Source of the DNA: a virus
Virus record (IMG/VR): IMGVR_UViG_3300027861_000020
DNA: 64,000 nt
Direction: 5' to 3' (one strand)
Positions within the stretch are counted from its first letter, which is position 1; every line of letters begins with the position of its first letter. Under the pieces are notes generated by a model. It was not told the origin of the DNA. It made no database searches and saw only the letters and a program-made list of their open reading frames with translations. Of the stretch, positions 3,275-63,422 are shown piece after piece. The translations under genes and the position numbers were made by a program.

Positions 3275-3394
3275 ATGTACGAAGGTTTGCTAGATGGGAT
3301 AGGGGCGTTAATCAAATTTATGTTTATACTTCTTTTGGTAACAGTACCTCTTGGAATATGGAAGCTTGTTGATATCATTAGATGGATTTTTTAA
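3275..3394 (+). CDS. small membrane peptide (39 aa)
   Basis: SD AAAGGAAATAATTATG; one TM helix. Confidence 0.35.
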   Translation: MYEGLLDGIGALIKFMFILLLVTVPLGIWKLVDIIRWIF

Positions 3395-3639
3395 GAAAAG
3401 AAATAATTATGGAACAAAAAGAAACTATAAAAGTTTTAAAAAAAGCTTTAAACAATATCAGATTGGTAGCAAAAGTAAGTTCGACAGATAATCTTTTTCT
3501 AGATGGAACGATAGAAGACTTAAGAAAGAGTAGAATTGCTTTGTTTCATAATATGGAAGATATTGAAAAGTATTCTAAAGAAATTCTTGATGAATTAGAG
3601 GGTTGTAATTGTAATAATTGTACTTGCGGAAAGGATTAA
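3382..3639 (+). CDS. hypothetical protein
   Basis: 85 aa ORF, C-terminal Cys cluster CNCNNCTC. Confidence 0.55.
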   Translation: MDFLRKEIIMEQKETIKVLKKALNNIRLVAKVSSTDNLFLDGTIEDLRKSRIALFHNMEDIEKYSKEILDELEGCNCNNCTCGKD

Positions 3640-3828
3640 AATGGTATCTTTTATAGTGGCAATGGGTGTGATGATTTTTTGGGCTCTTGCAGTATGTTGT
3701 ATGTTAAAATATCTTAATGAATAAAATTAAAGCCTTATTGATAACAAGTAATAGGGTTTTTTTATTTTCCAGCAAAATAACATTATTTAACAGTATAAAT
3801 GTTAATAAATTAAATTAGAAAGATAATT

Positions 3829-4032
3829 ATGAATTCATTGAAAATAGATATTAAAGAAGGAACTAAAGTAGTTATGGAGGGGCCAGGACCTGAATCGGAA
3901 AGAGTTGTTACAGTTGTCGGAGGATTCGGTTCCTATGCAGATACAATGGGAACTGCTTTGTTTGTTAATTACAAAGGTGATGCTATCAGATTTGATTCTA
4001 TGGAGATAGAGAAACTTCATGAAGATAAATAA
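3829..4032 (+). CDS. hypothetical protein
   Basis: 67 aa ORF, cassette at 3767, SD AAAGATAATTATG. Confidence 0.55.
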   Translation: MNSLKIDIKEGTKVVMEGPGPESERVVTVVGGFGSYADTMGTALFVNYKGDAIRFDSMEIEKLHEDK

Positions 4033-5324: not shown

Positions 5325-5762
5325 ATGTGCACATTAATAGATAATCTCAAATTGAGAAAACCCAAAACTAAAAAATTTATCGCATATAAAGTTTTTGATG
5401 GATGGGGCAATGAACCATATAGCTTTTGTGGGGATGTTAAGTTCGAATTCGGAACAACTGTATGGGATGAGGAAATAGCAAAACGAGATATTAATGATCA
5501 ATCTGGTTTCCAAATGTTTGCGTATAAAAAAGACGCAATGAAATACGCCGCATGTAGAGATTATGTATGTAAAGTAGAAGTTTTGACTAAAGATATTGCT
5601 AAAGTAGGATATGCTGGAATCTTCATGGGAAGTGCTGAAATCTTCATACGCATAAACGGTGAATTTAAATACGCTAAAGCATATGAAGTAAAAAAGTTTA
5701 AACTATTTAAAAAGAATTGGAACAAAAAAATAACAAAAATACAATTTTCGCGGAAAAAATAA
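5325..5762 (+). CDS. MC-family protein (N-terminal Met-Cys), paralog 1 of 5
   Basis: 145 aa, SD AAAGAAAGAAAAATTATG; motifs MCTL, AYKVF, GFQMF shared with 7768, 9535, 10975, 11936. Confidence 0.7.
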   Translation: MCTLIDNLKLRKPKTKKFIAYKVFDGWGNEPYSFCGDVKFEFGTTVWDEEIAKRDINDQSGFQMFAYKKDAMKYAACRDYVCKVEVLTKDIAKVGYAGIFMGSAEIFIRINGEFKYAKAYEVKKFKLFKKNWNKKITKIQFSRKK

Positions 5763-5763
5763 T

Positions 5764-5943
5764 ATGGATACAGAAAAAGAAATTATAAGATGTGTTGATA
5801 GCATAATAGAATCAAAAGATAATATTATTAAACAGTTAGAAGCTAAAATTTATCTACTAGAAGTAGAATTAATTCGTAAAGATGAAAAAATTGATCTTAC
5901 AAAATTAGCTTTAATTGATGCCTTGAAAGAGAGTAAAAAATGA
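5764..5943 (+). CDS. small coiled-coil protein (59 aa)
   Basis: ATG 2 nt after previous stop; ATGA overlap with next gene. Confidence 0.45.
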   Translation: MDTEKEIIRCVDSIIESKDNIIKQLEAKIYLLEVELIRKDEKIDLTKLALIDALKESKK

Positions 5944-6230
5944 TTAAAAGATTTAGAAAATATAGACCGTATGCATTATTCGATATAGATGATAAACTAT
6001 ATGTATTACTGCAAATAGGTATAGGATCTTGGGTTCTCGTAAATATTGATAAAAGATTGCTCAATAATGGAATGAATACGACTACTATTAATTATATAAA
6101 ATATAAAGATCTTATAAAATTAACAGAAACTGACAATTTTAAGTTTTTGGGTTATCTTGAATATTCCGTACCTGTAAACGAAATCCAGCAATATATATTT
6201 AAAATGCTTATTGAAAAGAGTAAAAAATGA
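5940..6230 (+). CDS. hypothetical protein
   Basis: 96 aa ORF, ATGA-coupled. Confidence 0.6.
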   Translation: MIKRFRKYRPYALFDIDDKLYVLLQIGIGSWVLVNIDKRLLNNGMNTTTINYIKYKDLIKLTETDNFKFLGYLEYSVPVNEIQQYIFKMLIEKSKK

Positions 6231-15925: not shown

Positions 15926-16162
15926 ATGAAACAATTAACAGAAAAAGAGGCAATAGAATTTGCCAATAGTAAAAAATGGAAATCAATGACTTATCTAGAA
16001 AAAGCTTCTTTTCAAATAAATCAAGAATGTTTATGTATGCCTTTTGGAGTCTTTCAGGAAGCAGTAGAAAAAACACTTGATAGATCTGTATGGACTCATG
16101 AATTAGGAAACAAAGATAGTGTCGAGCTAATGAAAAAACAAATTGCTGAAATTAAAAATTAA
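15926..16162 (+). CDS. hypothetical protein
   Basis: 78 aa ORF, SD AAGGAAGATAAAATAATG. Confidence 0.6.
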   Translation: MKQLTEKEAIEFANSKKWKSMTYLEKASFQINQECLCMPFGVFQEAVEKTLDRSVWTHELGNKDSVELMKKQIAEIKN

Positions 16163-16540
16163 TTAATTTTTCGCGGAAAAAATGAAAACTCTTAAAATAA
16201 ATAGAGAGAAAGAAGATAATAATGAATAGAGGACCAACAGGATCACAAATAGATATAACCATAAAAAAACCTAGATATTAAGAATTATCTAATTATATAT
16301 AAGAAAGATAATAAAATGAAATATAAATGGATGAATCTGTTTAAACAGGATAATAGTAAATGGACTAATATTAAAGACAATTATTATACGTAACACCAAA
16401 TCAACTTACATTTTTAATCATAACACTAAATTCTTTATCATACTAACCAAATGATAATGACGTAGAATTTAGTTTATATAAATAGCCCATTAAAGAATTT
16501 TAAAGAGTATTTGCCCTTTTTAATACACTAAATGGGCTTT

Positions 16541-16600
16541 TTGTTATTCTAACAAGCTTTTTGTTATTCTAACAAGCTTTTTGTTATTCTAACAAGCTTT
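16541..16600. repeat. 3 x 20-bp perfect tandem direct repeat
   Basis: TTGTTATTCTAACAAGCTTT x3, inside 780-bp gene-poor region. Confidence 0.85.
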
Positions 16601-16949
16601 TTAAAATTATACAACACCAAATTAAAGAACCAGTATTTAAAGGGTTTTTAGGGACTATCGATGGATCTTTATACATAAGACATCTTTTGTCCTCAAATAT
16701 TTTTAAATAATCCATTTTCTCCCACTTTACACCACTTTCTGCCCTTTTCTTAAAAACAGGTTAAATTCTATGAATTAATTAATGTTTTATTAAATAGGGC
16801 AAATAATAAAATCGGTCTTTTTAGTCTAAAAATGAATTAAAAGTCACTTTGTCACGGGGCGAAAAGAGTTTAATTTTCCAGCAATATATAATTAAATAGC
16901 TGTATCACTGAATCGACTATAACACTAAATAACAGAAAGGAATTTAAAA

Positions 16950-17444
16950 ATGAATGAGATTATTTTAACATTAGGGATTATTGGCTTTATATTTATCTGG
17001 TTTTATTATGGATATAAAGGGGCTAATTTAGAGAAAGACAGCACTAAATACCTTTATTCTCTTGTATTACAAGAAAATGCTTGGAAGAAATCAGATCAAG
17101 TATTTTATTATTTTTGTATTATTTCAGGCTTAATATCTTATTTTTGTATTAGGTTATTGGGGGATGTAGATATATTAAAAGTCTATCTTGATAAGAAGTT
17201 TTATATAGGTATTGCTAAAGAATATGCAGATATGGCATCAAAATATAATGATAATAGTTATCTTAAGATCTCTAAAAGATATTTAGAAAGGATTGAGAAA
17301 TTTGAGCAAGAGATTGAGGCTCCTTATATGAAGAAATACAAGATAGATCCTTGTTCTTATTGTTCAAAAATTAAAGAATGTTGTTTCGAACATTATGACT
17401 TTAAGTTATGCAATGAGTTTAGGCATATTAGGGCACTGTATTAG
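16950..17444 (+). CDS. membrane protein with Cys-rich C-terminus, family F paralog 1
   Basis: 164 aa; cassette at 16874; tail IEAPYMKKYKIDPCSYC..C..HYDFKLC. Confidence 0.65.
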   Translation: MNEIILTLGIIGFIFIWFYYGYKGANLEKDSTKYLYSLVLQENAWKKSDQVFYYFCIISGLISYFCIRLLGDVDILKVYLDKKFYIGIAKEYADMASKYNDNSYLKISKRYLERIEKFEQEIEAPYMKKYKIDPCSYCSKIKECCFEHYDFKLCNEFRHIRALY

Positions 17445-22904: not shown

Positions 22905-22963
22905 TTAAAGAGTCTTAAATCGTTTAAGACTGAAAGTACAATGTTTTTATGAAAGGATGTAAA

Positions 22964-24019
22964 ATGAAGAAGAGTTTGATGTTGGTTTTGATGTTGGGTC
23001 TAGTAGCAGTTATGTTGGGTGGATGTCGTAAACCTCCTATGCTAGAGAAATTTAAAGAAGTTAAGAATAATGAGACTGCTTTTGTTCTCTCTCTTGAAGG
23101 CGATATGTCTAATCAGGGAAAGATGAAGTCTTTGGAACAACTGCAAAAGGCAAAAGTTGCAGTTAAAAGGATTAACATTCCTCTAAGGTATCAGAAAACT
23201 GGTCGATGGTGGTATCAGGCAAAATTGATTCCTACAGTTATGATTATCACAGTTGACCGAACACCAATGACTAGAGAATGGATCGCCGCTGAAGATAAGG
23301 GTTCTAATCGTAAAGATGATGCAATTTGGATTGAAAGTTCAGATTCTGTTACCTTTAGCACTGGCTTTACAGTTACAGCAATGATTGAGGAAGAAAATTC
23401 AGCACTGTTTTTGTATAAGTATACGAATAGTTCTCTAGCTAATGTAATGGACAAAGAAATACGAGCTAGGATTCAGGCACGTTCTGCGGAAGTCGCAACT
23501 AAGTATAATATGGACGAATTGCGAGAAAAGAAGATGGAAATTATCGAAGCTGTTAAAGCTGATATTATTCCTTATTTTGCGGACCGCGGGGTAACGATTA
23601 CTACTCTTGGAATGTTTGGCGGATTTAACTACGAGAATCCAGATATTCAGCAATCTATTGATAAGGTTTTCATTACTCAACAGGAAAAAGAAAATGCTAA
23701 GGCTATGCTTGAGGCTCAGACCGATAAGAATGCAAGGATTAAACTAGAAGCTACAGCTTTTGCAGATGCAGAAATTGAAAAGGCTAAGGGTAAAGCTCAG
23801 GCTATTGAGATCGAAGCTAAGGCAGAAGCAGGAGCGATTACAGCAGTAGCAGAAGCCGCGGAAAAAGCCAAATCTAATCCTGTATTCGTAACATTGAAAA
23901 ATATTGCAGTCGAAGAACAGCGAATTGAAAAATGGAATGGTCAGTATCCTAACTGGTATATGAGTTCAGGAATGGGCGAAAATGATATAGATATTCTAGT
24001 TAGTCCTCCACAGAATTAA
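22964..24019 (+). CDS. SPFH/band-7 (stomatin/prohibitin/HflK-like) lipoprotein
   Basis: 351 aa from ATG after SD AAAGGA; lipobox LGGC; SPFH core followed by Ala/Glu/Lys-rich coiled coil; GC-richer than genome. Confidence 0.8.
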   Translation: MKKSLMLVLMLGLVAVMLGGCRKPPMLEKFKEVKNNETAFVLSLEGDMSNQGKMKSLEQLQKAKVAVKRINIPLRYQKTGRWWYQAKLIPTVMIITVDRTPMTREWIAAEDKGSNRKDDAIWIESSDSVTFSTGFTVTAMIEEENSALFLYKYTNSSLANVMDKEIRARIQARSAEVATKYNMDELREKKMEIIEAVKADIIPYFADRGVTITTLGMFGGFNYENPDIQQSIDKVFITQQEKENAKAMLEAQTDKNARIKLEATAFADAEIEKAKGKAQAIEIEAKAEAGAITAVAEAAEKAKSNPVFVTLKNIAVEEQRIEKWNGQYPNWYMSSGMGENDIDILVSPPQN

Positions 24020-36095: not shown

Positions 36096-36199
36096 TTTTC
36101 CAGCAAAATAGAATTTAATAATATGTTAGATATAATTGTTAATTAAAAAATAAATATTGTCTCCTTTTGTTTGTTAAGGTTGTTGTTTGCATATTATAG

Positions 36200-36232
36200 G
36201 GAAATCGGAGTTTTGGTTTCCCTATTTTTTTA
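36200..36232 (+). terminator. intrinsic terminator inside a 260-nt leader
   Basis: GGGAAATCGGAGTTTTGGTTTCCC + TATTTTTTT. Confidence 0.5.
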
Positions 36233-36363
36233 TACTTTAATTCTGGAGATAACAGCTAGTTAAAATAGGTAAAATAAAAAGAATAAATAATTAAGGAAAG
36301 ATAGGCAAGGATGTTTATCTTTATAATTTTAATGGATTTTAATTTAGTAGAAAGGATAGTAAA

Positions 36364-36603
36364 ATGAAGAATGTAATTAGTTTGGTAGTATTGGTTATGG
36401 TAGTTGTTTCTGTTTGTGGGTGTAACGCTGTGGATGGCATCCTACAAGACACGGCAGGTATGGCAAACGCCGCAAGGCAGATTACAACTCCTATGGCTGA
36501 CAAGGCACAGGCTCGTGATGCAAGTTATTCAGGAGCTAGATTGTCTCGTTATCATGCTGAACAGGCAGGTCGTTTTGCCTCGTTTAACAATAAGGAACAA
36601 TAA
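36364..36603 (+). CDS. small lipoprotein, weakly entericidin-like
   Basis: 79 aa; signal peptide + VCGC lipobox; mature part GC-rich (Ala/Gln-rich); SD AGAAAGGATAGTAAAATG. Confidence 0.65.
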   Translation: MKNVISLVVLVMVVVSVCGCNAVDGILQDTAGMANAARQITTPMADKAQARDASYSGARLSRYHAEQAGRFASFNNKEQ

Positions 36604-42405: not shown

Positions 42406-42825
42406 ATGAATACTTATCAATTTACAGTAATGGCTTATGACAAAAATGAAGATAAAGATATTCGAATCATTCTTGGAGAAGCTGATGGCATAGATAAAGA
42501 AGATGCCTTTAAGAATCTTATCGCTGAAAAGGAAATAGATTCTAAGACGATAGATGATGAATATTACAAGATGAATACAGTTAAATCTTCTATTGTATCT
42601 TTTGAAACTAAAGAAATGGAAGATAAAGATATTGATTATGAATTTCTAGCAAAAGAATCTGAAATAGAGATTTTAAAAAATGATAGCAATTTCTACGATT
42701 GGCTATTGGAAAAAGCTCAGGAAGAAATAAGTTGTTGGGATGTTGAGGGGCTTTTTGATTTTGTAAAAGATTCTTTAAATACTGATGATGATGGCATAGT
42801 TGATGACTATAGGATGCAATACTAA
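42406..42825 (+). CDS. hypothetical acidic protein
   Basis: 139 aa; cassette at 42370. Confidence 0.6.
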   Translation: MNTYQFTVMAYDKNEDKDIRIILGEADGIDKEDAFKNLIAEKEIDSKTIDDEYYKMNTVKSSIVSFETKEMEDKDIDYEFLAKESEIEILKNDSNFYDWLLEKAQEEISCWDVEGLFDFVKDSLNTDDDGIVDDYRMQY

Positions 42826-43154
42826 TGATAAATCTATATGTAGATGACGAAAGAACCCCACCGAATGATAATATATATAATTGGGTTGTTGTTAGAAATT
42901 ATCTAGATGCTATTAAAATTCTGGAAGAAGAAGAAGGTAACATTGAAAGGTTATCTTTAGACCATGATTTAGGTAATATTGGGGCAACTGGATATGACAT
43001 AAGCGTTTGGATAGAGGAACAAGTTAGTAAAAGGCAGTATAAAGCTCCTAAGCGTTTATACTGCCATTCGCAGAACCCTGTTGGAAAATCTAAAATCAAA
43101 GCATGTTATCAATCTATAAAAAGGATAGAAAGAGAAAGAGAAACTAATCTCTAG
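42825..43154 (+). CDS. receiver(CheY)-like fold small protein (tentative)
   Basis: 109 aa; LYVDDER ... AIKILEE ... IERLSLDHDLG ... GYDISVWI mirrors beta1/acid pocket, beta3 phospho-Asp and beta4-alpha4 of REC domains. Confidence 0.5.
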   Translation: MINLYVDDERTPPNDNIYNWVVVRNYLDAIKILEEEEGNIERLSLDHDLGNIGATGYDISVWIEEQVSKRQYKAPKRLYCHSQNPVGKSKIKACYQSIKRIERERETNL

Positions 43155-45993: not shown

Positions 45994-46057
45994 TTTTCCA
46001 GCATTTTAAATCTTATTCATTGTAAAATTGTTAATAATAATTTTGAAAGGAATAACA

Positions 46058-46771
46058 ATGAATGATAGACTAAAATTTTATGTAGAATTCCCAATAGCTC
46101 AAACATGGGAAGAGGCTGTTAAATGTATCATAGATGGCGGTTCTTGTCATCAAGAAGATTCTAACGATTGGCCTAACTGCGGAGGCTTTGATGATTTGAT
46201 AGTTTTTCTTGAAAATTTCCCAGAAGAAGAAAAAGATGAATTTGATTTCTCTCTTTTTGATGTTCATATGGTTCCAAAAGGGGAAGAAGATGCTATCGCA
46301 GAGCCTTTTAAGGTCGGAGAAATGGTATGGTCATCTAAGGACATTGAAAGAGTTGCTTTGGATAATCCTGTTTACGCAGGGACGGGACTTAAAATCGAAA
46401 GAATATGTATCGATGGAACTCTGATTTTTGAAAAATCTTTCAAGTCAAATGGAAAAGACATTAAACTTGGTTTTAATCCTCAAAATTTTATCAGGGATGG
46501 AAAAGAAGAAAAAGAAGATAAGAAAGTCTATATTCTAGTTGATACATCAGAAGGTAATCTGGATATGGATTCTACTTTTACTTCTATGACTTCTCTTAAG
46601 AACTTTGTAGATGATAATAAGATTCTTTGGTCTGATGAAGATGATTTTGAAGAGATTTTGGATTCATTAGGTATTTTAAATGATTATTCTGGAACTAATT
46701 GGGATTATGAAGGAGTCCATAAGGTTACTGGAGAAGTTGTTTATGCAGTCCAAATATCTTTTCTAAAGTAA
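46058..46771 (+). CDS. hypothetical acidic protein
   Basis: 237 aa; cassette at 45994, SD GAAAGGAATAACAATG. Confidence 0.65.
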   Translation: MNDRLKFYVEFPIAQTWEEAVKCIIDGGSCHQEDSNDWPNCGGFDDLIVFLENFPEEEKDEFDFSLFDVHMVPKGEEDAIAEPFKVGEMVWSSKDIERVALDNPVYAGTGLKIERICIDGTLIFEKSFKSNGKDIKLGFNPQNFIRDGKEEKEDKKVYILVDTSEGNLDMDSTFTSMTSLKNFVDDNKILWSDEDDFEEILDSLGILNDYSGTNWDYEGVHKVTGEVVYAVQISFLK

Positions 46772-46838
46772 TTTTCCAGCATTTTAATTATTATTATCAT
46801 TATAATTGTTAATAATAAACTTTTTAAGGGTAATAAAA

Positions 46839-47024
46839 ATGAATAATAAAGAAAAAGCTCAAAAATTATGGGCTGAACTTGAAAATATTCCAATAAATGA
46901 ATATGAAGAAATAGATATAGATTGGAATAATTTCGATAAAGGAACTCATATTCAAGATATATGGCATTGGTTTGAAGAAAAATTCGATATATCAGTTGCT
47001 AAAGATTTAATGAAAATTATTTAA
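46839..47024 (+). CDS. hypothetical protein
   Basis: 61 aa; cassette at 46772. Confidence 0.5.
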   Translation: MNNKEKAQKLWAELENIPINEYEEIDIDWNNFDKGTHIQDIWHWFEEKFDISVAKDLMKII

Positions 47025-47186
47025 TAATAAAGGATATTTTTCTTGATTCGTATAATATATAATTATTAGATACTTGAATCCGATAATTAAGTATCAGTAA
47101 TTTATATATTATAGAGTAATTTTCTTTCCTTTAGTCGGATTCAGGATTGATTTTTGCTCTTTTTTTTCGCGAATAAGGAGAATACA

Positions 47187-48014
47187 ATGAAAAAAGAGAA
47201 TCCGACTATTAAATGTGCTTGTGGATGTGGAGAAGAGTTTAAACTTTATAGTAAATGGGGGAAAAAAAGAAAATATGTAAGTGGGCATAATAGAAGATTA
47301 AATAAGAAACAATCGATTATTAAATGCGATTGTGGATGTGGAGAAGAACTAGAACTTTACGATATAGAGGGAAGAAAACGTAGATATATAAATGGGCATA
47401 ATAATAGAAAATACGATGATCCTAACCAACATAAAAGAGAATGGAATAAAAGAAATAAGAAAAAAAGATATGAAACAAAAAATAATAGATTATTTAGAAT
47501 TAAGTCAGAGTTAATAACTAAAAAAGGAGGATGTTGTTTAGAATGTAAAATTAAATATAATGGAGTTAATTCTAATATATTTGATTTTCATCATGTTAAT
47601 CCTGAAGAAAAACTTTTTAATATAATGCAGGGTCTTAATTGTAAAAGACTAGAAGATGTGTATAAAGAAATAAAAAAATGTATATTATTATGTTCAAATT
47701 GCCATAGGATAAAGCATCATAAATTTATTTTTGATGGTAAAATATACAAAGAAGTTCATATAATAAGAGAAAATTTAATCTTAGAAGCAGGAGATTGCTG
47801 TTCTAAGTGCAAAATTAAACGTAATGAATATAATTCAAGTATATTTGATTTCCATCATACCACCCCCGAAAACAAAAAATTTCAATTAAGTAAAAGCGGT
47901 ATTGCATACAAAAGCATAAAAGATATTAATTTAGAATTTAAAAAATGTATATTATTATGCTCAAATTGTCATCGGATAATAAAACATTCAGAAATCCAGC
48001 AAAAATCAAAATAA
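47187..48014 (+). CDS. tandem-HNH endonuclease-like protein
   Basis: 275 aa; N-terminal CACGCG/CDCGCG zinc knuckles then two repeats FDFHH..NP(E)..N...CILLCSNCHRIKHH (HNH signature); SD AAGGAGAATACAATG. Confidence 0.75.
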   Translation: MKKENPTIKCACGCGEEFKLYSKWGKKRKYVSGHNRRLNKKQSIIKCDCGCGEELELYDIEGRKRRYINGHNNRKYDDPNQHKREWNKRNKKKRYETKNNRLFRIKSELITKKGGCCLECKIKYNGVNSNIFDFHHVNPEEKLFNIMQGLNCKRLEDVYKEIKKCILLCSNCHRIKHHKFIFDGKIYKEVHIIRENLILEAGDCCSKCKIKRNEYNSSIFDFHHTTPENKKFQLSKSGIAYKSIKDINLEFKKCILLCSNCHRIIKHSEIQQKSK

Positions 48015-48055
48015 TAATTAAGTTATTATAATAATAATTTTAATCAGGAGAATTT

Positions 48056-49303
48056 ATGATATACTTTGTAAACAATGAAAATAAAAAGCCTATTAAGTCT
48101 TGGTGCGAGCATGTAGAGCCTGAGGCTATGGCACAAGCCAGTAATCTTGCTAACCTACCATTTCTATATAAATGGGTCGTGCTAGAGCCGGATTGCCACC
48201 TAGGATACGGAATGCCTATAGGAGGAGTTATAGCGTTAGAAAATGCAGTAATTCCTAACGCGGTTGGCGTGGATATTGGATGTGGGATGTCCTGTTTCAA
48301 AACTTCTATAAAATCTAATAATATTTCTAAGCAACAACTAAGAAGTATTATAGAAGAAGTTAAGAAACAAATTCCTCTAGGAATGAGCCACCATTCTCAT
48401 AGTTCTAAGCAATTCAAAGAAAATTTTAAGTATTTTGAAAGAATTGAAGAGAGAATTACGCAGAAACAGTATGCGAGATTTTTTAATATTTTTGGAAAAG
48501 GAAAAACCAAAAAGGAATTGAACAAATATTTTTCTGAAAGTCTTGGTACACTGGGTGGCGGAAATCATTTTATTGAGGTACAAACAGATGAAGAAGATAA
48601 TATTTGGCTAATGATACATTCTGGATCTAGAAATGTTGGTTATAAAGTAGCTAATTATTATCATAAAAAGGCTTTGGAATTAAATAAGAAATGGCACTCA
48701 AATATTTCTAATGATGATTTAGCTTTTTTACCATCAGATTCAGAAGAAGGCATACATTATATTAAAGATATGAATTTTGCTTTGAAATATGCGGAAGAAA
48801 ATAGACGTTTAATAATGGAATCTTTTAAATCTTCTATTACTAAAGTTTTAGGAGATGTAGAGTTTAAAGATGAGATAAATATACATCATAATTTTGCGGC
48901 ATTAGAGAATCATTATGGTAAGAATGTATGGGTACACCGAAAAGGAGCTACATCAGCTAAAAAAGGTCAATTAGGTATTATTCCTGGTTCTATGGGAACT
49001 GCATCTTATATTGTTAAAGGTCTTGGAAATCCAGAATCATTTATGAGTTGTTCTCATGGAGCAGGTCGTATAATGGGTAGAAAACAGGCATCTATATCTT
49101 TAGGCAAGCAAGAATGCGAAAACTCTATGCAGGGTATTGTTTATGATGGTTTTCAAATGATTAAAGATAGAAAAGGTAAAGAGATGTTAGACTTGGGCGA
49201 AGCTCCAATGGCGTATAAGAATATCGATAATGTCATTAAATCAGAATCAGACTTAATAGAGCCTGTTGTTAGGTTAAGACCTTTAGCAGTTATTAAAGGA
49301 TAA
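48056..49303 (+). CDS. rtcB: RtcB-family RNA 3'-phosphate/2',3'-cyclic-phosphate ligase
   Basis: 415 aa; all RtcB signature motifs: GVDIGCGM, GGGNHFIE, HSGSRNVG, NIHHNF, SCSHGAGR; SD AGGAGAATTTATG. Confidence 0.9.
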   Translation: MIYFVNNENKKPIKSWCEHVEPEAMAQASNLANLPFLYKWVVLEPDCHLGYGMPIGGVIALENAVIPNAVGVDIGCGMSCFKTSIKSNNISKQQLRSIIEEVKKQIPLGMSHHSHSSKQFKENFKYFERIEERITQKQYARFFNIFGKGKTKKELNKYFSESLGTLGGGNHFIEVQTDEEDNIWLMIHSGSRNVGYKVANYYHKKALELNKKWHSNISNDDLAFLPSDSEEGIHYIKDMNFALKYAEENRRLIMESFKSSITKVLGDVEFKDEINIHHNFAALENHYGKNVWVHRKGATSAKKGQLGIIPGSMGTASYIVKGLGNPESFMSCSHGAGRIMGRKQASISLGKQECENSMQGIVYDGFQMIKDRKGKEMLDLGEAPMAYKNIDNVIKSESDLIEPVVRLRPLAVIKG

Positions 49304-49369
49304 TTTTCCAGCAATAAATAAATTATTTTCTTTATAATTGTTAATGATAATTATAGAAAGGTTATAAAA

Positions 49370-49642
49370 ATGGAAATAATGATAATGGTTCTTTTGGGTA
49401 TTTTTTGGACATGTTTTTTGGTCTTTGTTTGTTTTTGGGATGGATATGAACCTAAACAAAAACAAATAAAAGAAAAACAATATTATTGTGAACGATGTGG
49501 AGCTAAATCAACTTTTAGACCTAATTTAGTAGATAAAGATATAATTCTTTTTTCTATCTGTACTCGTTGTGAAGAAGAGATTGAAGATAGAGTAAGAGAA
49601 GAAGTAAGGCAAGAGATTATTGATAGTATTTCCAGCAAGTAA
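49370..49642 (+). CDS. membrane-anchored zinc-ribbon protein
   Basis: 90 aa; cassette at 49304; TM then CERCG...CTRCE. Confidence 0.55.
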   Translation: MEIMIMVLLGIFWTCFLVFVCFWDGYEPKQKQIKEKQYYCERCGAKSTFRPNLVDKDIILFSICTRCEEEIEDRVREEVRQEIIDSISSK

Positions 49643-49692
49643 AATTTTATTTATTGTATGATTGTTAATAATAATTATTTAAGGAATAGAAA

Positions 49693-50031
49693 ATGAATAC
49701 GACAATAATACTTAATAGAGAAGATGTTAATAATCCTCTTCATCCTAATCTTTGGGAAGACTTTATGGATACTTTGGGTCTGGATCATGAAACAACAGAA
49801 GTTTGTCTTGAAAAATCTAAACATGATGATAATAAAGTAATTAAAACTAAAAAGTTTAAAGTTGGGGATTGTGTTACCCTTTCAAATAATACAACCCTTG
49901 TCTGCGGGACAATTACAGCAATTGATTTTAATGGAGAACAAAATACTTATTATGTTGAATGGGATGATGTTCTTCATTATGGAGGAAGCATCACCGAAAA
50001 CTGGTATGATGAAGATGATTTAAAAATATAA
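49693..50031 (+). CDS. hypothetical protein
   Basis: 112 aa ORF, SD TTAAGGAATAGAAAATG. Confidence 0.55.
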   Translation: MNTTIILNREDVNNPLHPNLWEDFMDTLGLDHETTEVCLEKSKHDDNKVIKTKKFKVGDCVTLSNNTTLVCGTITAIDFNGEQNTYYVEWDDVLHYGGSITENWYDEDDLKI

Positions 50032-50060
50032 TGCTTGCTTGCTTTTTTTTGTTGCGGATA

Positions 50061-50088
50061 GCCCTTATCTTAATTGATAGGGGCTTTT
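50061..50088 (+). terminator. intrinsic terminator, conserved hairpin family
   Basis: GCCCTTATCTTAATTGATAGGGGC + TTTT. Confidence 0.55.
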
Positions 50089-50144
50089 CCAGCATTTTAT
50101 TCTTTAATTTCTTTATAATTGTTAATAAATTAAGGGATATAAAA

Positions 50145-50327
50145 ATGGCTAAAAGTAAAAAACAAAAAAAAATAGAAAAGACAATGAAGAAAAGGGCTGA
50201 AAGACCTGATATTATGAATATTAGGAAGTCTATGCCCTGTCCCACCGGAACTAAAGTTATTAAAGATAAGAAAAAAGAACAAAATAAAAAACAATGTCGA
50301 AATAAGGATATTAAGAATGAAGAATAG
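50145..50327 (+). CDS. basic small protein
   Basis: 60 aa from SD-supported ATG (track 50031 ORF is an upstream read-through of terminator+cassette). Confidence 0.5.
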   Translation: MAKSKKQKKIEKTMKKRAERPDIMNIRKSMPCPTGTKVIKDKKKEQNKKQCRNKDIKNEE

Positions 50328-50427
50328 AAAAGGTTTTCCAGATAAAAAAATACCTGAATAATTTTCCAGCAAATAGTATTTTATTATCATTATAATTGTT
50401 GATAATAAAGTTTTAAGGAATAAAAAG

Positions 50428-50622
50428 ATGGCAAAAAAGAAAAGTAAAAGAAGAAGAATTAGTAAAGATATTTTAGATTTAAGAAAACAATTTGAAATGG
50501 ATAATACAGATTCTGTTTTTGTATCACCAAAAGCATTAAAAGAAAAAGTACCTAATAGAAAAGAAAGAAAAGATTATTTAAGAGCAATAGTAAATGAATT
50601 TGATAGAATGTTAGCTGTTTAA
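50428..50622 (+). CDS. basic small protein
   Basis: 64 aa; cassette at 50362, SD TTAAGGAATAAAAAGATG. Confidence 0.5.
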   Translation: MAKKKSKRRRISKDILDLRKQFEMDNTDSVFVSPKALKEKVPNRKERKDYLRAIVNEFDRMLAV

Positions 50623-50629
50623 TTGATAT

Positions 50630-50765
50630 ATGGGTATAGCTCAGTCAGGTTAGAGCGTTCGTTTGACATCCTTAACGTATTTACTAGTAATACGGGAAGC
50701 GTACCATTTAGGATCCTTTGGTACGAGTTGGCGAAAGGTCGCAAGTTCGAATCTTGCTACTCATT
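50630..50765 (+). tRNA. tRNA gene (anticodon region GAC, Val?) carrying a 61-nt insertion in the anticodon loop
   Basis: hand fold: acceptor ATGGGTA/TACTCAT, U8A9, D-arm GCTC-AGTCAGGTTA-GAGC, anticodon stem TTCGT/GCGAA split by 50669-50729, variable AGGTC, T-arm GCAAG-TTCGAAT-CTTGC, discriminator T. Confidence 0.6.
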
Positions 50766-50942
50766 GCTTTTATTGTAGATACTAAATGTATTGAATAACG
50801 AGGCATCATAGTCGTAAGGACTAAAATCTATCCACGCCTACAATCCGAAAGGAAGAGAATAAAAGGGGTAGTTATATTAAGATTTTCCAGCAAATAAGAT
50901 TTTATTATCTTTATAATTGTTAATAATTTAAGGAATAAAAAA

Positions 50943-51068
50943 ATGATAGTTAATTGGGAAAATAGATGTCTTATATGTGATTATATATGGGATTCTGAAT
51001 CATGCACCGAATCATGTCCAGAATGTGGAGAAACAGATGATATTTATTCAGAAGAGGTAGAAGAATAA
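50943..51068 (+). CDS. zinc-ribbon peptide (41 aa)
   Basis: cassette at 50883; CLIC...CPEC. Confidence 0.45.
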   Translation: MIVNWENRCLICDYIWDSESCTESCPECGETDDIYSEEVEE

Positions 51069-52026: not shown

Positions 52027-52245
52027 ATGATATTAGATAAAATAATAACTAAAATAATAACTATAATAATGGCTATTGTATGGACTTTTGGGGCTGTTTT
52101 TTATATAGGGGCAGGGATTGTAGTTGCTAAAACAGCTAGTACAAGTTGTTTATTCATAATCTTCGGGGGATTCTGTATATTAGGGGGAGTTCTTATCTTG
52201 TTTATGACAGTAGCAATGTTAATAGAGAATTTTTCCAGCAAATAA
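52027..52245 (+). CDS. small membrane protein
   Basis: 72 aa, 2 TM, SD TAAGGGGAAATAATG. Confidence 0.5.
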   Translation: MILDKIITKIITIIMAIVWTFGAVFYIGAGIVVAKTASTSCLFIIFGGFCILGGVLILFMTVAMLIENFSSK

Positions 52246-52296
52246 ACTTTTATTTTCTTCATAATTGTTAATAATAAACTTTTTAAGGAATAAAAA
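52231..52296 (+). promoter_or_regulatory. long-form cassette (near-identical ~66-bp block)
   Basis: TTTTCCAGCAAATAAACTTTTATTTTCTTCATAATTGTTAATAATAAACTTTTTAAGGAATAAAAA. Confidence 0.6.
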
Positions 52297-54223: not shown

Positions 54224-54430
54224 AAGGAATAATTTTCCAGCATTTTAAAGTTAATTAACAGTATAAGAGTAACGGACGTAAAACAGTTTCCTATTTATTA
54301 GGTTGCCGTACCATCGGGGCAGACCCGTACCGAGTATGACGGGATAGCCCGATATCGGGGCAATGAAGTTAAGCCCAAAATGGCTGTTTTTGTAGATAAT
54401 ATGTATCTAACAGCTAAACCCTATTAGGGA

Positions 54431-54471
54431 GGGAAAGTCATTGACTATATGATATGGCTTTCCCTATTTTT
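54431..54471 (+). terminator. intrinsic terminator ending a GC-rich structured non-coding segment
   Basis: GGGAAAGTCATTGACTATATGATATGGCTTTCCC + TATTTTT. Confidence 0.5.
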
Positions 54472-54519
54472 CCAGCGTTATAAACTTTATTTACTGAATA
54501 ATTGTAAGGAATAAATAAA

Positions 54520-54789
54520 ATGGATTATGGTAAATATATAATTGTAGAGTCGAATTGTTCTCAAGCTATTCTTTTTGATAATACAATGTCCCATGATGAC
54601 TTTCTGGCTATGTTTAATAAAGATATAATTAAATCGGCAGGATTTTTTATCGTATCGGGAACAGGGTCTGAACATGACCAAGAAGATATAGAAGTAACTG
54701 TATTCGGAAAAAGTATTACTCTTGGATTAAAATCAGATGAAAAAGATGCATATTATATTAAAAGAATATTAAGAAAATCTCAATATTAA
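54520..54789 (+). CDS. hypothetical protein
   Basis: 89 aa; cassette at 54468 (short variant). Confidence 0.55.
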   Translation: MDYGKYIIVESNCSQAILFDNTMSHDDFLAMFNKDIIKSAGFFIVSGTGSEHDQEDIEVTVFGKSITLGLKSDEKDAYYIKRILRKSQY

Positions 54790-61498: not shown

Positions 61499-61534
61499 GG
61501 GGAAGTAAGCTACGCGATTACTTCCCCCATTTTC
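61499..61534 (+). terminator. intrinsic terminator
   Basis: GGGGGAAGTAAGCTACGCGATTACTTCCCCC + ATTTT. Confidence 0.6.
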
Positions 61535-61596
61535 CAGCATTTTAAACTTTATTTTCTTTATAATTGTTAATGATAATAACTTTTAAGGAATAAAAA
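61530..61596 (+). promoter_or_regulatory. long-form cassette
   Basis: identical over ~60 bp to the 60090 copy. Confidence 0.6.
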
Positions 61597-62793: not shown

Positions 62794-63150
62794 CTTTTTA
62801 TATTAAATTAAAATTCCAGCAAATTGAATGTTAATTATATATAATTATAAGAAGTAATTAAATCGAAAGGAGAATTAAACCAATCAATTAAAATACTTAA
62901 TAAAATATATATGACATAGACTATATAGAGAATTAAAAATACAAAAAATAGGAAGGGTTTAAAAATGAAGTAATTTATTTGATTGTGTAATAGAAGAGTA
63001 TATAATAATAAATAGTTGACTATAAAGCAACTGTTAATAGAGAAGAGAAAGTAGATGAGTTATGTTCTAATTGAATACTATCTACTTTCCTTTTCTATCT
63101 TTTATATCTTGAATGAATTTCCAGCATGTTAAATCTTATTTAGGTATATA

Positions 63151-63220
63151 GGGTAAGGGTAGAACATAGGGTAGGGGGCTCAGGGGAAACATTGATTAGT
63201 ACACCCCCCCAGCCTACCCA
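63151..63220. repeat. G-run/C-run GC-rich element (G-quadruplex-type motif plus imperfect inverted repeat)
   Basis: GGGTAAGGGTAGAACATAGGGTAGGGGG ... ACACCCCCCCAGCCTACCC; GGGTAGG/CCTACCC arms. Confidence 0.6.
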
Positions 63221-63422
63221 GTGCGTGTGAACACCTTTTAACTCAGAAAGGAGTCTCTAAAAAGCTCTTTTCCACACACACATTTTTTTGCTAAAATATT
63301 TTTTAGTTTTTCAAGTTATTAGAGAATATTAAAAGAAATTGAAAAGTGTAATGTTTTATGTCATAATTGCCATTCGAAATTGCATAATAAATTAATTTTT
63401 AATTAGAAAGGAAATAAATTAA

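What the first reader, a model, noticed from the sequence alone, without database searches (positions are those of the whole stretch)
47025..49303. RtcB RNA ligase with a tandem-HNH endonuclease gene, a likely tRNA-repair/counter-defence block
- 48056-49303 has every RtcB signature motif: GVDIGCGM, GGGNHF, HSGSRNVG, NIHHNF, SCSHGAGR. It is a complete 415-aa enzyme.
- 47187-48014 directly upstream encodes CxCGCG knuckles plus two HNH repeats (FDFHH..NP..N..CILLCSNCHRIKHH).
- Unlike neighbouring genes, this pair lacks the CCAGCA cassette. It is preceded by the palindromic variant TTTTTTTTCGCGAA and by inverted repeats in the 47025-47186 leader (CTTGAATCCGA / TCGGATTCAGG). That suggests a separately acquired module.
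- In phages RtcB is generally taken to reseal tRNAs cut by host anticodon nucleases (PrrC, RloC or colicin-type). Here it sits 1.3 kb from the interrupted tRNA.
Basis: partly seen in the sequence, partly recalled or inferred. Interest (0 to 1): 0.6.

Follow-up and report, generated by a model that had tools for sequence, protein, structure and literature searches.

The report
RtcB ligase beside its own homing endonuclease
A phage carries a complete RtcB RNA ligase gene, and the nuclease gene just upstream is most likely not a repair partner but a selfish homing endonuclease from a lineage that specialises in invading rtcB genes.

Summary
Both genes are real. The gene at 48056-49303 is a full-length RtcB (Pfam 393 bits) with every catalytic residue present. 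The gene at 47187-48014 encodes two CxCGCG zinc knuckles followed by two intact HNH nuclease domains.

The "tRNA-repair/counter-defence block" reading holds only for RtcB.
- The three closest rtcB relatives (71% aa) come from phages with the same promoter-like cassette. They have no HNH gene upstream.
- Eight of the closest HNH homologues in a 5.8-billion-protein database were checked for context. Seven sit inside rtcB, splitting it at one codon boundary (GV|DIGCGM, the metal-binding motif). The eighth sits directly upstream of rtcB.
- The same split occurs in four further viral contigs and in the cultured Bacillus phages CM1 and Goe27. Partial group I intron signatures flank the nuclease gene in seven of the loci.

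The window's HNH is therefore best read as a free-standing homing endonuclease that targets rtcB, arranged like T4 MobE beside nrdB or cyanophage F-CphI beside psbA. Its two-knuckle, two-HNH build is unique among the 120 closest relatives.

RtcB itself is ordinary (708 phage records). The nearby tRNA-Val with a 61-nt anticodon-loop insert is real but unexplained.

The parts
46774..46782 (+). Last canonical cassette (TTCCAGCAT, followed by TATAATTGTTAAT) before the HNH gene. It precedes the 61-aa gene at 46839-47024 and is the likely source of read-through transcription into the HNH gene.
47025..47186 (+). Cassette-less, highly structured leader of the HNH gene. It holds a 25-nt imperfect palindrome (47051-47075 / 47089-47113) and a 9-nt perfect inverted repeat. 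In the minimum-free-energy fold the ribosome-binding site (47175-47180) is paired with 47035-47050.
   Evidence: z = -4.65. Sequestration of the ribosome-binding site is predicted only.
47187..48014 (+). Free-standing HNH homing-endonuclease gene (275 aa).
47214..47291 (+). Extra N-terminal CxCGCG...GHN zinc knuckle (residues 10-35).
47325..47402 (+). Canonical CxCGCG...GHN knuckle (residues 47-72), followed by the family linker RKYDDPNQHKREWNKRN.
47526..47720 (+). HNH domain 1 (residues 114-178). Family-invariant C117, C120, H135, H136, E161, K164, C169, N171, C172 and H173 are all present.
47790..47987 (+). HNH domain 2 (residues 202-267), an internal duplicate 54% identical to domain 1. The CxxC pairs, FDFHH and CSNCH are kept. 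The last His is shifted by one residue.
47994..48002 (+). Degenerate cassette core ATCCAGCAA inside the 3' end of the HNH gene, 53 nt upstream of rtcB. A TATAAT follows 26 nt later, against 18 nt in canonical copies.
48056..49303 (+). rtcB, a complete uninterrupted 3'-phosphate/5'-hydroxyl RNA ligase gene (415 aa). Its ribosome-binding site AGGAG is at 48046-48050.
48266..48289 (+). Codons for GVDIGCGM. The V72|D73 boundary (48271|48272) corresponds to where rtcB is split by HNH-bearing introns in other phages, so it is the presumed homing site.
50630..50765 (+). tRNA-Val(GAC) gene with a 61-nt insert (50670-50730) in the anticodon loop. It is the only tRNA in the window. Context only: no link to RtcB has been shown.
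42825..43154 (+). cRec (cyclic-phosphate-processing receiver domain) gene, 4.9 kb upstream. It is the only other recognisable RNA-end-processing candidate in the window.
   Evidence: PF20274, 83.5 bits; predicted function from PMC7824862 and PMC9503650

Best explanation
Two independent things lie side by side.

(a) rtcB is a resident, functional gene of this AT-rich phage lineage. It encodes a GTP/Mn-dependent ligase that joins 2',3'-cyclic-phosphate or 3'-phosphate RNA ends to 5'-OH ends. In a phage its most likely use is resealing tRNAs or other RNAs cut by metal-independent host ribonucleases. This role is inferred.

(b) The upstream gene is a free-standing homing endonuclease from a lineage specialised on rtcB. 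In most relatives the same nuclease is encoded inside a group I-type intron that interrupts rtcB exactly between the Val and Asp codons of the metal-binding GVDIGCGM motif. Here it sits promoter-less in front of an intact rtcB.

The proposed mechanism is inferred by analogy with T4 MobE/nrdB and F-CphI/psbA. During mixed infection the enzyme nicks or cuts the rtcB region of a related phage that lacks it. Recombinational repair from the carrier genome then copies the nuclease gene and flanking rtcB sequence into the victim.

The structured leader and the missing cassette probably keep expression low and dependent on read-through transcription. The duplicated HNH domain may let one polypeptide cut both strands. 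That last point is speculative.
For: RtcB
- PF01139 at 393 bits over the whole model and phrog_1075 at E = 1.6e-123.
- Alignment to Pyrococcus horikoshii RtcB conserves the motifs holding the residues I recall as catalytic: D95/C98 to D73/C76, N202/H203 to N170/H171, H234 to H188, H329 to H278, nucleophile H404 to H334. The Pyrococcus residue roles are from my own knowledge.
- The nearest relatives are a 100% copy on the source contig, then 71% relatives in cassette-bearing phage contigs, then about 57% bacterial RtcBs.

The HNH gene is present in some relatives and absent in others
- L013/L014 and L015 carry the same TTCCAGCAA cassette and homologues of the flanking window genes 46058-46771 and 49370-49642. 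They have no HNH next to rtcB.
- No fetched relative matches window 46867-48037.

The HNH lineage targets rtcB
- Of the eight close homologues checked (P0122-P0128 and P0133), seven lie between an rtcB N-terminal fragment ending at window residue 72/73 and a C-terminal fragment starting at residue 73. These are P0122-P0128, in L017/L018, L142/L143, L102, L100/L101, L144, L145 and L104. In L100/L101 the N-terminal fragment rests on a weak Pfam hit only.
- P0133 (L103) lies directly upstream of rtcB, in the divergent orientation.
- The same split occurs in IMG/VR loci L019 and L021/L022. L027 has the free-standing arrangement plus a leftover rtcB fragment (residues 9-66) upstream of the HNH gene.
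- Bacillus phages CM1 and Goe27 show the same split.
- Partial group I intron hits flank the HNH ORF in L017, L021, L100, L104, L105 and L106 (21.7-34.1 bits, all below the cut-off of 50). Goe27 has a second rtcB intron above threshold at 67.4 bits.
- Only 708 of 50,697 phage records encode an RtcB relative, so this adjacency is not chance.

The nuclease looks intact
- All family-invariant residues are present in domain 1 and are mirrored in domain 2.
- The AlphaFold2 model has pLDDT 86.7 and pTM 0.73.

The arrangement has precedent
[quoted passage not shown] From my own knowledge, it lies between nrdA and nrdB.
- F-CphI is a free-standing homing endonuclease of cyanophage S-PM2 (PMC6083498). 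From my own knowledge, it lies next to psbA and cuts at the intron insertion site.
Against: - No cleavage, homing or ligation has been shown.
- The cleavage site of any member of this HNH family is unknown.
- Some family members are free-standing at loci with no rtcB within 4 kb (L020, L023), so specificity for rtcB is not universal.
- No co-conversion mosaic is visible in the window's rtcB. It is about 72% identical to both relatives along its whole length.
- Pfam's HNH model does not reach its cut-off. Foldseek hits to solved structures are not significant (best E = 0.24).
- Most group I hits are below Rfam's gathering score, and 3' splice sites were not defined.
Confidence: 0.72

Rival explanations
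1. HNH and RtcB form a co-acquired functional counter-defence module, in which the nuclease acts together with the ligase. For example, it might attack host or competitor nucleic acid while RtcB repairs phage-needed RNA.
For: The two genes are adjacent, on the same strand and only 41 nt apart. Rnl2 RNA ligases fused to N-terminal HNH domains have been noted in jumbo phages and read this way (PMC7824862).
Against: The closest rtcB relatives lack the HNH gene. In most relatives the HNH gene interrupts rtcB inside an intron-like element rather than being co-expressed with it. In one case it lies antisense to rtcB (L145), and in another it is divergent (L103). No other repair gene is adjacent.
Confidence: 0.08
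2. RtcB's main job in this phage is splicing, not repair. It would join the exons of the phage's own tRNA-Val(GAC) after a protein endonuclease removes the 61-nt anticodon-loop insert.
For: The only tRNA in 64 kb carries a 61-nt insert, placed after position 37 or 38 (the sequence cannot tell which). That is at or next to the position of archaeal and eukaryal introns, which are ligated by RtcB. The insert is far too short for a self-splicing group I intron. It lies 1.3 kb from rtcB. The exons still score 52 bits as a tRNA.
Against: No splicing-endonuclease family (EndA) was found among the 20 Pfam families hit by 147 window proteins. No bulge-helix-bulge motif forms: the 3' junction lies in or next to a helix in the best and near-best folds. 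No known ribozyme family matches. No homologous interrupted tRNA was found. rtcB relatives on L013-L015 show no tRNA nearby, though those contigs are short.
Confidence: 0.1
3. The HNH gene is a decaying or domesticated relic that no longer homes. It may be inactive, or kept only as a weapon that excludes competing phages.
For: It sits outside any intron. It has an unusual duplicated architecture. A clearly degraded HNH C-terminal remnant exists elsewhere in the window at 63323-63403, which shows that such genes decay in this genome.
Against: The ORF is intact with a good ribosome-binding site. All invariant catalytic and zinc-binding residues are kept in both domains. The model is confident. 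Exclusion of competitors is mechanistically the same activity as intron-less homing, so this rival is only partly distinct.
Confidence: 0.1

Closest known systems
Phage T4 MobE, a free-standing HNH endonuclease acting on nrdB, near the nrdB intron that encodes I-TevIII
   Same: Both are free-standing HNH genes placed directly upstream of the target gene and dependent on upstream transcription, with no promoter of their own. In both cases the neighbouring gene is a known intron host (PMC2790892). The location of mobE between nrdA and nrdB is from my own knowledge.
   Different: The target here is rtcB, not nrdB. The DNA-binding modules are CxCGCG knuckles. There are two HNH domains in one chain, whereas MobE has one and makes a strand-specific nick. 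No activity data exist here.
Cyanophage S-PM2 F-CphI, a free-standing endonuclease associated with psbA (collaborative homing)
   Same: A free-standing endonuclease is associated with an intron insertion site in the neighbouring gene. Both illustrate traffic between free-standing and intron-encoded states (PMC6083498). The detail that F-CphI cuts at the psbA intron insertion site is from my own knowledge of Zeng, Bonocora and Shub 2009.
   Different: F-CphI uses an Endo VII-type DHHRN motif. In the rtcB system it is the close homologues of the same nuclease family that sit inside the intron.
Intron-encoded HNH endonucleases of SPO1-like Bacillus phages (I-HmuI, I-BasI, I-TwoI)
   Same: These are HNH nucleases encoded in group I introns within conserved phage genes. 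Bacillus phages CM1 and Goe27 carry members of the present family inside rtcB.
   Different: No detectable sequence match to any solved structure, which would include I-HmuI. The target gene differs. The window copy is not inside an intron. The comparison with the I-HmuI family otherwise rests on my own knowledge.
Escherichia coli and Pyrococcus horikoshii RtcB
   Same: Full-length PF01139 match with all metal-binding residues and the nucleophile His conserved. At 415 aa it is the short bacterial form.
   Different: It is encoded by a phage, without RtcA, RtcR, Archease, Rsr/Y-RNA or Band-7 partners next to it. Its substrates are unknown.
T4 Pnkp/Rnl1 repair of PrrC-cleaved tRNA-Lys
   Same: This is the model for the inferred role: a phage ligase undoing host anticodon-nuclease damage. 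The comparison is from my own knowledge.
   Different: RtcB seals 3'-P/2',3'>p to 5'-OH directly, so it needs no kinase or phosphatase. No phage RtcB has been tied to a specific host nuclease in the papers searched.

Membership tests
RtcB RNA ligase (PF01139) | Full-length profile match above the curated threshold | tested here: met
   393 bits against a cut-off of 27, profile positions 1-426 of 426
RtcB RNA ligase (PF01139) | Metal ligands (Asp/Cys/His) and the guanylylated His nucleophile | tested here: met
   D73, C76, H171, H188, H278 and H334 align with Pyrococcus RtcB D95, C98, H203, H234, H329 and H404. The residue roles are from my own knowledge.
RtcB RNA ligase (PF01139) | GTP/Mn-dependent joining of 3'-P or 2',3'>p ends to 5'-OH RNA | not testable with these tools
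   Needs a biochemical assay
HNH (beta-beta-alpha-metal) nuclease | Pfam HNH (PF01844) above its gathering score | tested here: not met
   14.6 bits against 21.4. PHROG HNH families match at E = 2.4e-32, 6.5e-29 and 3.5e-19.
HNH (beta-beta-alpha-metal) nuclease | Catalytic His and two CxxC zinc-binding pairs in each repeat | tested here: met
   Domain 1 has C117, C120, H135/H136, C169, C172 and H173, all invariant across 41 aligned sequences. Domain 2 has C205, C208, H223/H224, C258, C261 and H262.
HNH (beta-beta-alpha-metal) nuclease | HNH fold | tested here: inconclusive
Homing endonuclease gene (free-standing) | Presence/absence polymorphism among closely related genomes at the same locus | tested here: met
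   L013/L014 and L015 have rtcB (71% aa) without the HNH gene
Homing endonuclease gene (free-standing) | Close homologues encoded in introns or inteins at a conserved site of the adjacent gene | tested here: met
   Seven of the eight close homologues checked (P0122-P0128), the IMG/VR loci L019 and L021/L022, and phages CM1 and Goe27 split rtcB at residue 72|73
Homing endonuclease gene (free-standing) | Site-specific cleavage of the allele lacking the gene, and preferential inheritance | not testable with these tools
   Needs enzyme assays and mixed infections
Group I intron in the window's rtcB | Interrupted reading frame plus ribozyme core | tested here: not met
   rtcB is one uninterrupted ORF. 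There is no Intron_gpI hit in the window even at E <= 0.1.
Cellular RtcB repair operons (RtcBA-RtcR, Rsr/Y-RNA, Band-7 with b7a-tRNA) | Adjacent RtcA, RtcR, Archease, Ro60 or Band-7 partner gene | tested here: not met
   None was found among 147 window proteins. The only Band_7 hit (22.7 bits, below its cut-off) is 24 kb away at 22949-24019. The flanking ORFs that were scanned individually have no family.
Archaeal/eukaryal protein-dependent tRNA splicing (EndA + RtcB) | Bulge-helix-bulge motif at the intron boundaries and a splicing endonuclease gene | tested here: not met
   No bulge-helix-bulge motif in the best or near-best folds. No EndA family hit.

The most novel reading that the evidence does not exclude
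The phage's single tRNA gene, tRNA-Val(GAC) at 50630-50765, carries a 61-nt insert that is neither a group I intron nor a bulge-helix-bulge intron. It would be removed by an unrecognised phage or host endonuclease, with the exons joined by the neighbouring RtcB. That would be protein-dependent tRNA splicing in a bacteriophage. It would also give phage RtcB a housekeeping substrate, and perhaps a tRNA that stays immune to anticodon nucleases until it is spliced.
Probability: 0.1. Interest if true: 0.85.

Novelty: new member of a known kind. Interest (0 to 1): 0.4.

Why it matters
This corrects an appealing but wrong functional inference. Adjacency of a nuclease and an RNA ligase here reflects a parasite sitting beside its target, not a pathway.

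It also identifies rtcB as a recurrent homing target in unrelated phages, including two cultured Bacillus phages whose split rtcB genes are annotated as separate ORFs. Three kinds of insertion fall on RtcB catalytic motifs:
- introns carrying this HNH family at the metal-binding GV|DIGCGM motif;
- a second intron at about residues 160-171, near the GGGNHF motif, in Goe27;
- an intein-sized insertion at GVDIGCGM in Pseudomonas phage PS119XW.

The family occurs both inside introns and free-standing. That makes it a natural series for studying how homing endonucleases move between those two states. The repeated invasion also implies that rtcB is conserved and widely shared among co-infecting phages.

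The single-chain double-HNH architecture suggests a testable route from a nicking enzyme to one that cuts both strands.

Tried and rejected
1. Nucleotide search of 46000-51000 against 50,697 phage records found nothing.

2. I looked for an rtcB exon-1 remnant or intron remnant around the window's HNH gene.
- tblastn of RtcB against the window finds only the gene itself.
- The leader has no similarity to the intron loci.
- There are no group I hits.

3. I looked for a co-conversion mosaic in rtcB against L013 and L015. Identity is uniformly about 72%, so there is no signal.

4. I tested several explanations for the tRNA insert. All were rejected or left unsupported.
- Bulge-helix-bulge intron: not formed.
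- Known ribozyme: no Rfam hit.
- Repeated mobile element: the insert is a single copy.
- Homologues elsewhere: an exon pattern with a gap found nothing in IMG/VR, and 35 related metagenome contigs do not cover the region.

5. ARAGORN intron mode on all fetched loci gave apparent short-intron tRNAs. In the loci rechecked with Rfam these were adjacent tRNAs in arrays, plus one classical group I intron in L076.

6. The region downstream of the tRNA (50766-50882) showed no significant structure (z = -1.3).

7. The cassette pattern found nothing in IMG/VR.

8. Pfam scans of 30 further window proteins looked for kinase, phosphatase or RtcA partners. None was found near rtcB.

9. A sequence search of the HNH protein against solved structures gave no significant hit.

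10. The Burroughs and Aravind 2016 RNA-repair paper could not be retrieved. Its b7a-tRNA idea is cited second-hand from bioRxiv 10.1101/312249.

11. I tried to define the 3' splice sites of the rtcB introns. Exon 1 ends in T in every intron-bearing allele where it was read. The 3' boundary could not be placed consistently after a G.
Full report
**The sequence**

The window is 29% G+C and almost entirely coded on the + strand. It is packed with small genes.
- About 70 of these genes are preceded by a conserved cassette, TTCCAGCA[A/T]. The cassette is often followed 18 nt later by TATAATTGTTAAT and then a ribosome-binding site.
- The 9-mer with up to one mismatch occurs 96 times, against 16.7 expected by chance.
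- The region 46000-51000 has no close nucleotide match among 50,697 phage records.
- The same RtcB protein is on record on a 69.9-kb metagenome contig.

**RtcB**

ORF 48056-49303 (415 aa, ribosome-binding site AGGAG at 48046-48050) is a full-length RtcB.
- It matches PF01139 at 393 bits over the whole profile and phrog_1075 at E = 1.6e-123.
- Aligned to Pyrococcus horikoshii RtcB, every motif that I recall as holding active-site residues is conserved. These are PDCH (45-48), GVDIGCGM (D73, C76), GGGNHF (N170, H171), HSGSR (H188), IHHNF (H278), SCSHGAGR (H334, the nucleophile) and the C-terminal K414.
- The closest relatives are two metagenomic proteins at 71% identity. Bacterial RtcBs follow at 53-58%. 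Known phage RtcBs are at most about 40% identical.
- RtcB is common in phages: 708 records hold a relative.

As a gene, this is an ordinary, intact RtcB.

**The HNH gene**

ORF 47187-48014 (275 aa) has a modular, duplicated build.
- An extra CxCGCG...GHN knuckle occupies residues 10-35.
- A canonical knuckle plus linker occupies residues 47-90.
- HNH domain 1 occupies residues 114-178.
- HNH domain 2 occupies residues 202-267.
- The two HNH domains are 54% identical to each other. They share a nearly identical 45-nt block encoding KKCILLCSNCHRI.

The evidence that this is an HNH nuclease is mixed but consistent.
- Pfam's HNH model is below threshold (14.6 against 21.4 bits).
- PHROG HNH families match at E = 2.4e-32.
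- All residues invariant across 41 aligned sequences are present.
- An AlphaFold2 model is confident (pLDDT 86.7, pTM 0.73).

Among the 120 best database relatives, the architectures break down as follows:

| Architecture | Number of proteins |
|---|---|
| One knuckle, one HNH (about 160 aa) | 88 |
| Two knuckles, one HNH | 4 |
| No CxCGCG knuckle, two HNH | 11 |
| Two knuckles, two HNH | 1 (the window protein) |

**Is the pair a unit?**

No. The three contigs carrying the 71% RtcB relatives (L013/L014 and L015) belong to the same phage group.
- L013 and L015 carry the cassette.
- L015 also encodes homologues of window genes 46058-46771 and 49370-49642.
- Small unrelated genes (53-56 aa), not an HNH, lie directly upstream of rtcB in L014 and L015. 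L013 begins only 76 nt upstream of rtcB, with the same upstream sequence as L014.
- Their rtcB genes have no cassette of their own. The missing canonical cassette at the window's rtcB is therefore probably ancestral.
- A search with the cassette pattern retrieved 35 more short metagenome contigs of this group. None contains an HNH relative, and none matches window 46867-48037.
- Homology with L013 resumes at 48038, 23 nt after the HNH stop codon.

**What the HNH family does elsewhere**

The closest homologue, P0122 (54% identity), lies inside a split rtcB on a 181-kb contig.
- The layout is an RtcB N-terminal fragment, then the HNH gene, then an RtcB C-terminal fragment.
- Exon 1 ends ...PSAVGV and exon 2 begins DIGCGM.... 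A partial group I intron match lies between exon 1 and the HNH ORF.

I then checked every close homologue I could. The contexts fall into three groups:

| Context | Loci |
|---|---|
| Inside rtcB, split at window residue 72\|73 | P0122 (L017/L018), P0123 (L142/L143), P0124 (L102), P0125 (L100/L101), P0126 (L144), P0127 (L145, HNH antisense to rtcB), P0128 (L104), L019, L021/L022, Bacillus phages CM1 and Goe27 |
| Free-standing, directly upstream of intact rtcB | the window, L027 (with a leftover rtcB fragment, residues 9-66, upstream of the HNH gene), P0133 (L103, divergent orientation) |
| Free-standing, no rtcB within 4 kb | L020, L023, L024/L025 |

- In L100/L101 the N-terminal rtcB fragment rests only on a weak precomputed Pfam hit.
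- In L103 rtcB is cut off by the contig end, so only its 5' part is visible.
- CM1 and Goe27 annotate the rtcB pieces as separate ORFs.
- Sub-threshold group I hits flank the HNH ORF in L017, L021, L100, L104, L105 and L106 (21.7-34.1 bits).
- Goe27 has a second rtcB intron above threshold (67.4 bits), at about residues 160-171, near the GGGNHF motif.
- Exon 1 ends in T in every intron-bearing allele where it was read. Several introns start with the same AACTAATCGGC.
- Pseudomonas phage PS119XW has a 734-aa RtcB with an intein-sized insertion at the same motif.

The metal-binding motif of rtcB is therefore a hot spot for selfish elements, and this HNH lineage is one of its specialists.

**Interpretation of the window**

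The window's HNH gene is a free-standing member of an rtcB-homing lineage, parked directly upstream of an intact target gene.
- It has no cassette.
- Its 162-nt leader is strongly structured (z = -4.65). In the predicted fold the ribosome-binding site is paired with upstream sequence.
- From my own knowledge, mobE lies between nrdA and nrdB. Also from my own knowledge, F-CphI lies next to psbA and cuts at the intron insertion site (family described in PMC6083498).

The mechanism is inferred, not shown. It would involve cleavage of an rtcB region that lacks the HNH gene during co-infection, followed by repair that copies the gene across. The second HNH domain could supply the second-strand cut that single-domain HNH homing enzymes usually lack. 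That is speculation.

**What RtcB does for the phage**

The family's chemistry is direct sealing of 2',3'>p or 3'-P ends to 5'-OH ends. The usual proposal for phages is repair of tRNAs cut by metal-independent host nucleases (PMC7824862).
- Local support is thin. No RtcA, Archease, kinase or phosphatase gene was found in the flanking genes that were scanned.
- A cRec gene, predicted to process cyclic phosphates, lies 4.9 kb upstream at 42825-43154 (PF20274, 83.5 bits).
- In other phages this rtcB/HNH locus sits among tRNA arrays and a peptidyl-tRNA hydrolase gene (L017).
- Repeated invasion at catalytic-motif codons suggests that the gene is conserved and under selection.

**The interrupted tRNA**

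Positions 50630-50765 hold the only tRNA in the window. It is tRNA-Val(GAC) with a 61-nt insert (50670-50730), placed after position 37 or 38.
- The insert folds into two hairpins. Its 3' end pairs with the anticodon.
- It is too short for a group I intron.
- It forms no bulge-helix-bulge motif and matches no ribozyme family.
- It is not repeated elsewhere in the window.
- No homologue was found, and no EndA-type endonuclease is encoded.

Whether it is spliced, with RtcB as the ligase, or is a pseudogene or a tRNA-like RNA, remains open. A precedent for the last possibility is the predicted band-7-associated tRNA found next to RtcB in bacteria (bioRxiv 10.1101/312249). I give the splicing reading about 10%.

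**Verdict**

The "repair block" idea is wrong for the HNH gene.
- What is there is an ordinary phage RtcB with a homing endonuclease from an rtcB-specific lineage beside it.
- I found no description of that lineage in the searchable literature.
- It is a new member of a well-known kind of element, with an unusual tandem architecture.
- The neighbouring interrupted tRNA deserves separate follow-up.

Noticed in passing
whole window, e.g. 49306-49375, 52233-52296, 61532-61596: About 70 copies of a gene-preceding cassette: TTCCAGCA[A/T], 18 nt, TATAATTGTTAAT, about 20 nt, AAGGAAT, then ATG. A short form runs straight from TTCCAGCAA into the ribosome-binding site and ATG. The 9-mer with up to one mismatch occurs 96 times against 16.7 expected. 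The pattern retrieved 35 short JGI/ENA metagenome contigs and none from IMG/VR. Its nature is unknown; it could be a phage-specific promoter or an RNA-processing signal.
   Followed up: partly
window 50630-50765: The only tRNA in the window is tRNA-Val(GAC), with a 61-nt anticodon-loop insert (50670-50730). The insert is neither a group I intron nor a bulge-helix-bulge intron, and no homologue was found. No CCA is encoded.
   Followed up: partly
window 63323-63403, with the G+C-rich stretch 63140-63260 upstream: A degraded C-terminal remnant of another HNH endonuclease (RILKEIEKCNVLCHNCHSKLHNKLIFN*), preceded by stop codons. Just upstream lies an unusually G+C-rich, possibly structured non-coding stretch. 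A similar G+C-rich stretch occurs in L015 at about 1115-1200.
   Followed up: no
window 42825-43154: A cRec gene (PF20274, 83.5 bits), a domain predicted but never shown to open 2',3'-cyclic phosphates. It is the only other candidate for RNA-end processing in the window.
   Followed up: partly
window 22949-24019: A 356-aa protein with a sub-threshold SPFH/Band-7 match (22.7 against 23.6 bits). Band-7 proteins are linked to RtcB and a tRNA-like RNA in some bacteria, but this gene is 24 kb from rtcB.
   Followed up: no
window 16162-16950, 36098-36430, 54235-54520: Long stretches without a called gene in an otherwise tightly packed genome. The stretch at 54235 starts with a cassette and then runs into relatively G+C-rich sequence. 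No Rfam hit at E <= 0.1.
   Followed up: no
L105 (Bacillus phage Goe27, OM728304.1 118074-121240) and L106 (Bacillus phage CM1, LC785692.1 101938-103950): rtcB in these cultured phages is split and annotated as separate ORFs. CM1 has one HNH-bearing insertion at GV|DIGCGM. Goe27 has that insertion plus a second group I intron (67.4 bits), carrying its own ORF, near the GGGNHF motif.
   Followed up: partly
L027 3305-6188: One rtcB locus holds several selfish elements. There is a second HNH gene upstream (3305-3676) and an rtcB N-terminal fragment (3735-3923), followed by the family HNH gene and a full rtcB. An ORF with a motif resembling LAGLIDADG endonucleases (judged by eye) at 5592-6188 ends in a duplicated RtcB C-terminus (...KPLLNIKG).
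   Followed up: no
L099 (Pseudomonas phage PS119XW, NC_070882.1 239559-241763): RtcB is annotated as a single 734-aa CDS. The match to the window protein breaks at residues 69-76, which suggests an intein at the same metal-binding motif.
   Followed up: no
L103 1104-4841; L023 2479-3837; L099 3732-5181: In several phages rtcB or this HNH family lies next to NAD+ salvage genes (NAD synthase, NAPRTase/NAMPT, isochorismatase-type nicotinamidase, Nudix, PRPP synthetase). The window also encodes an isochorismatase-family protein, whose position was not determined.
   Followed up: no
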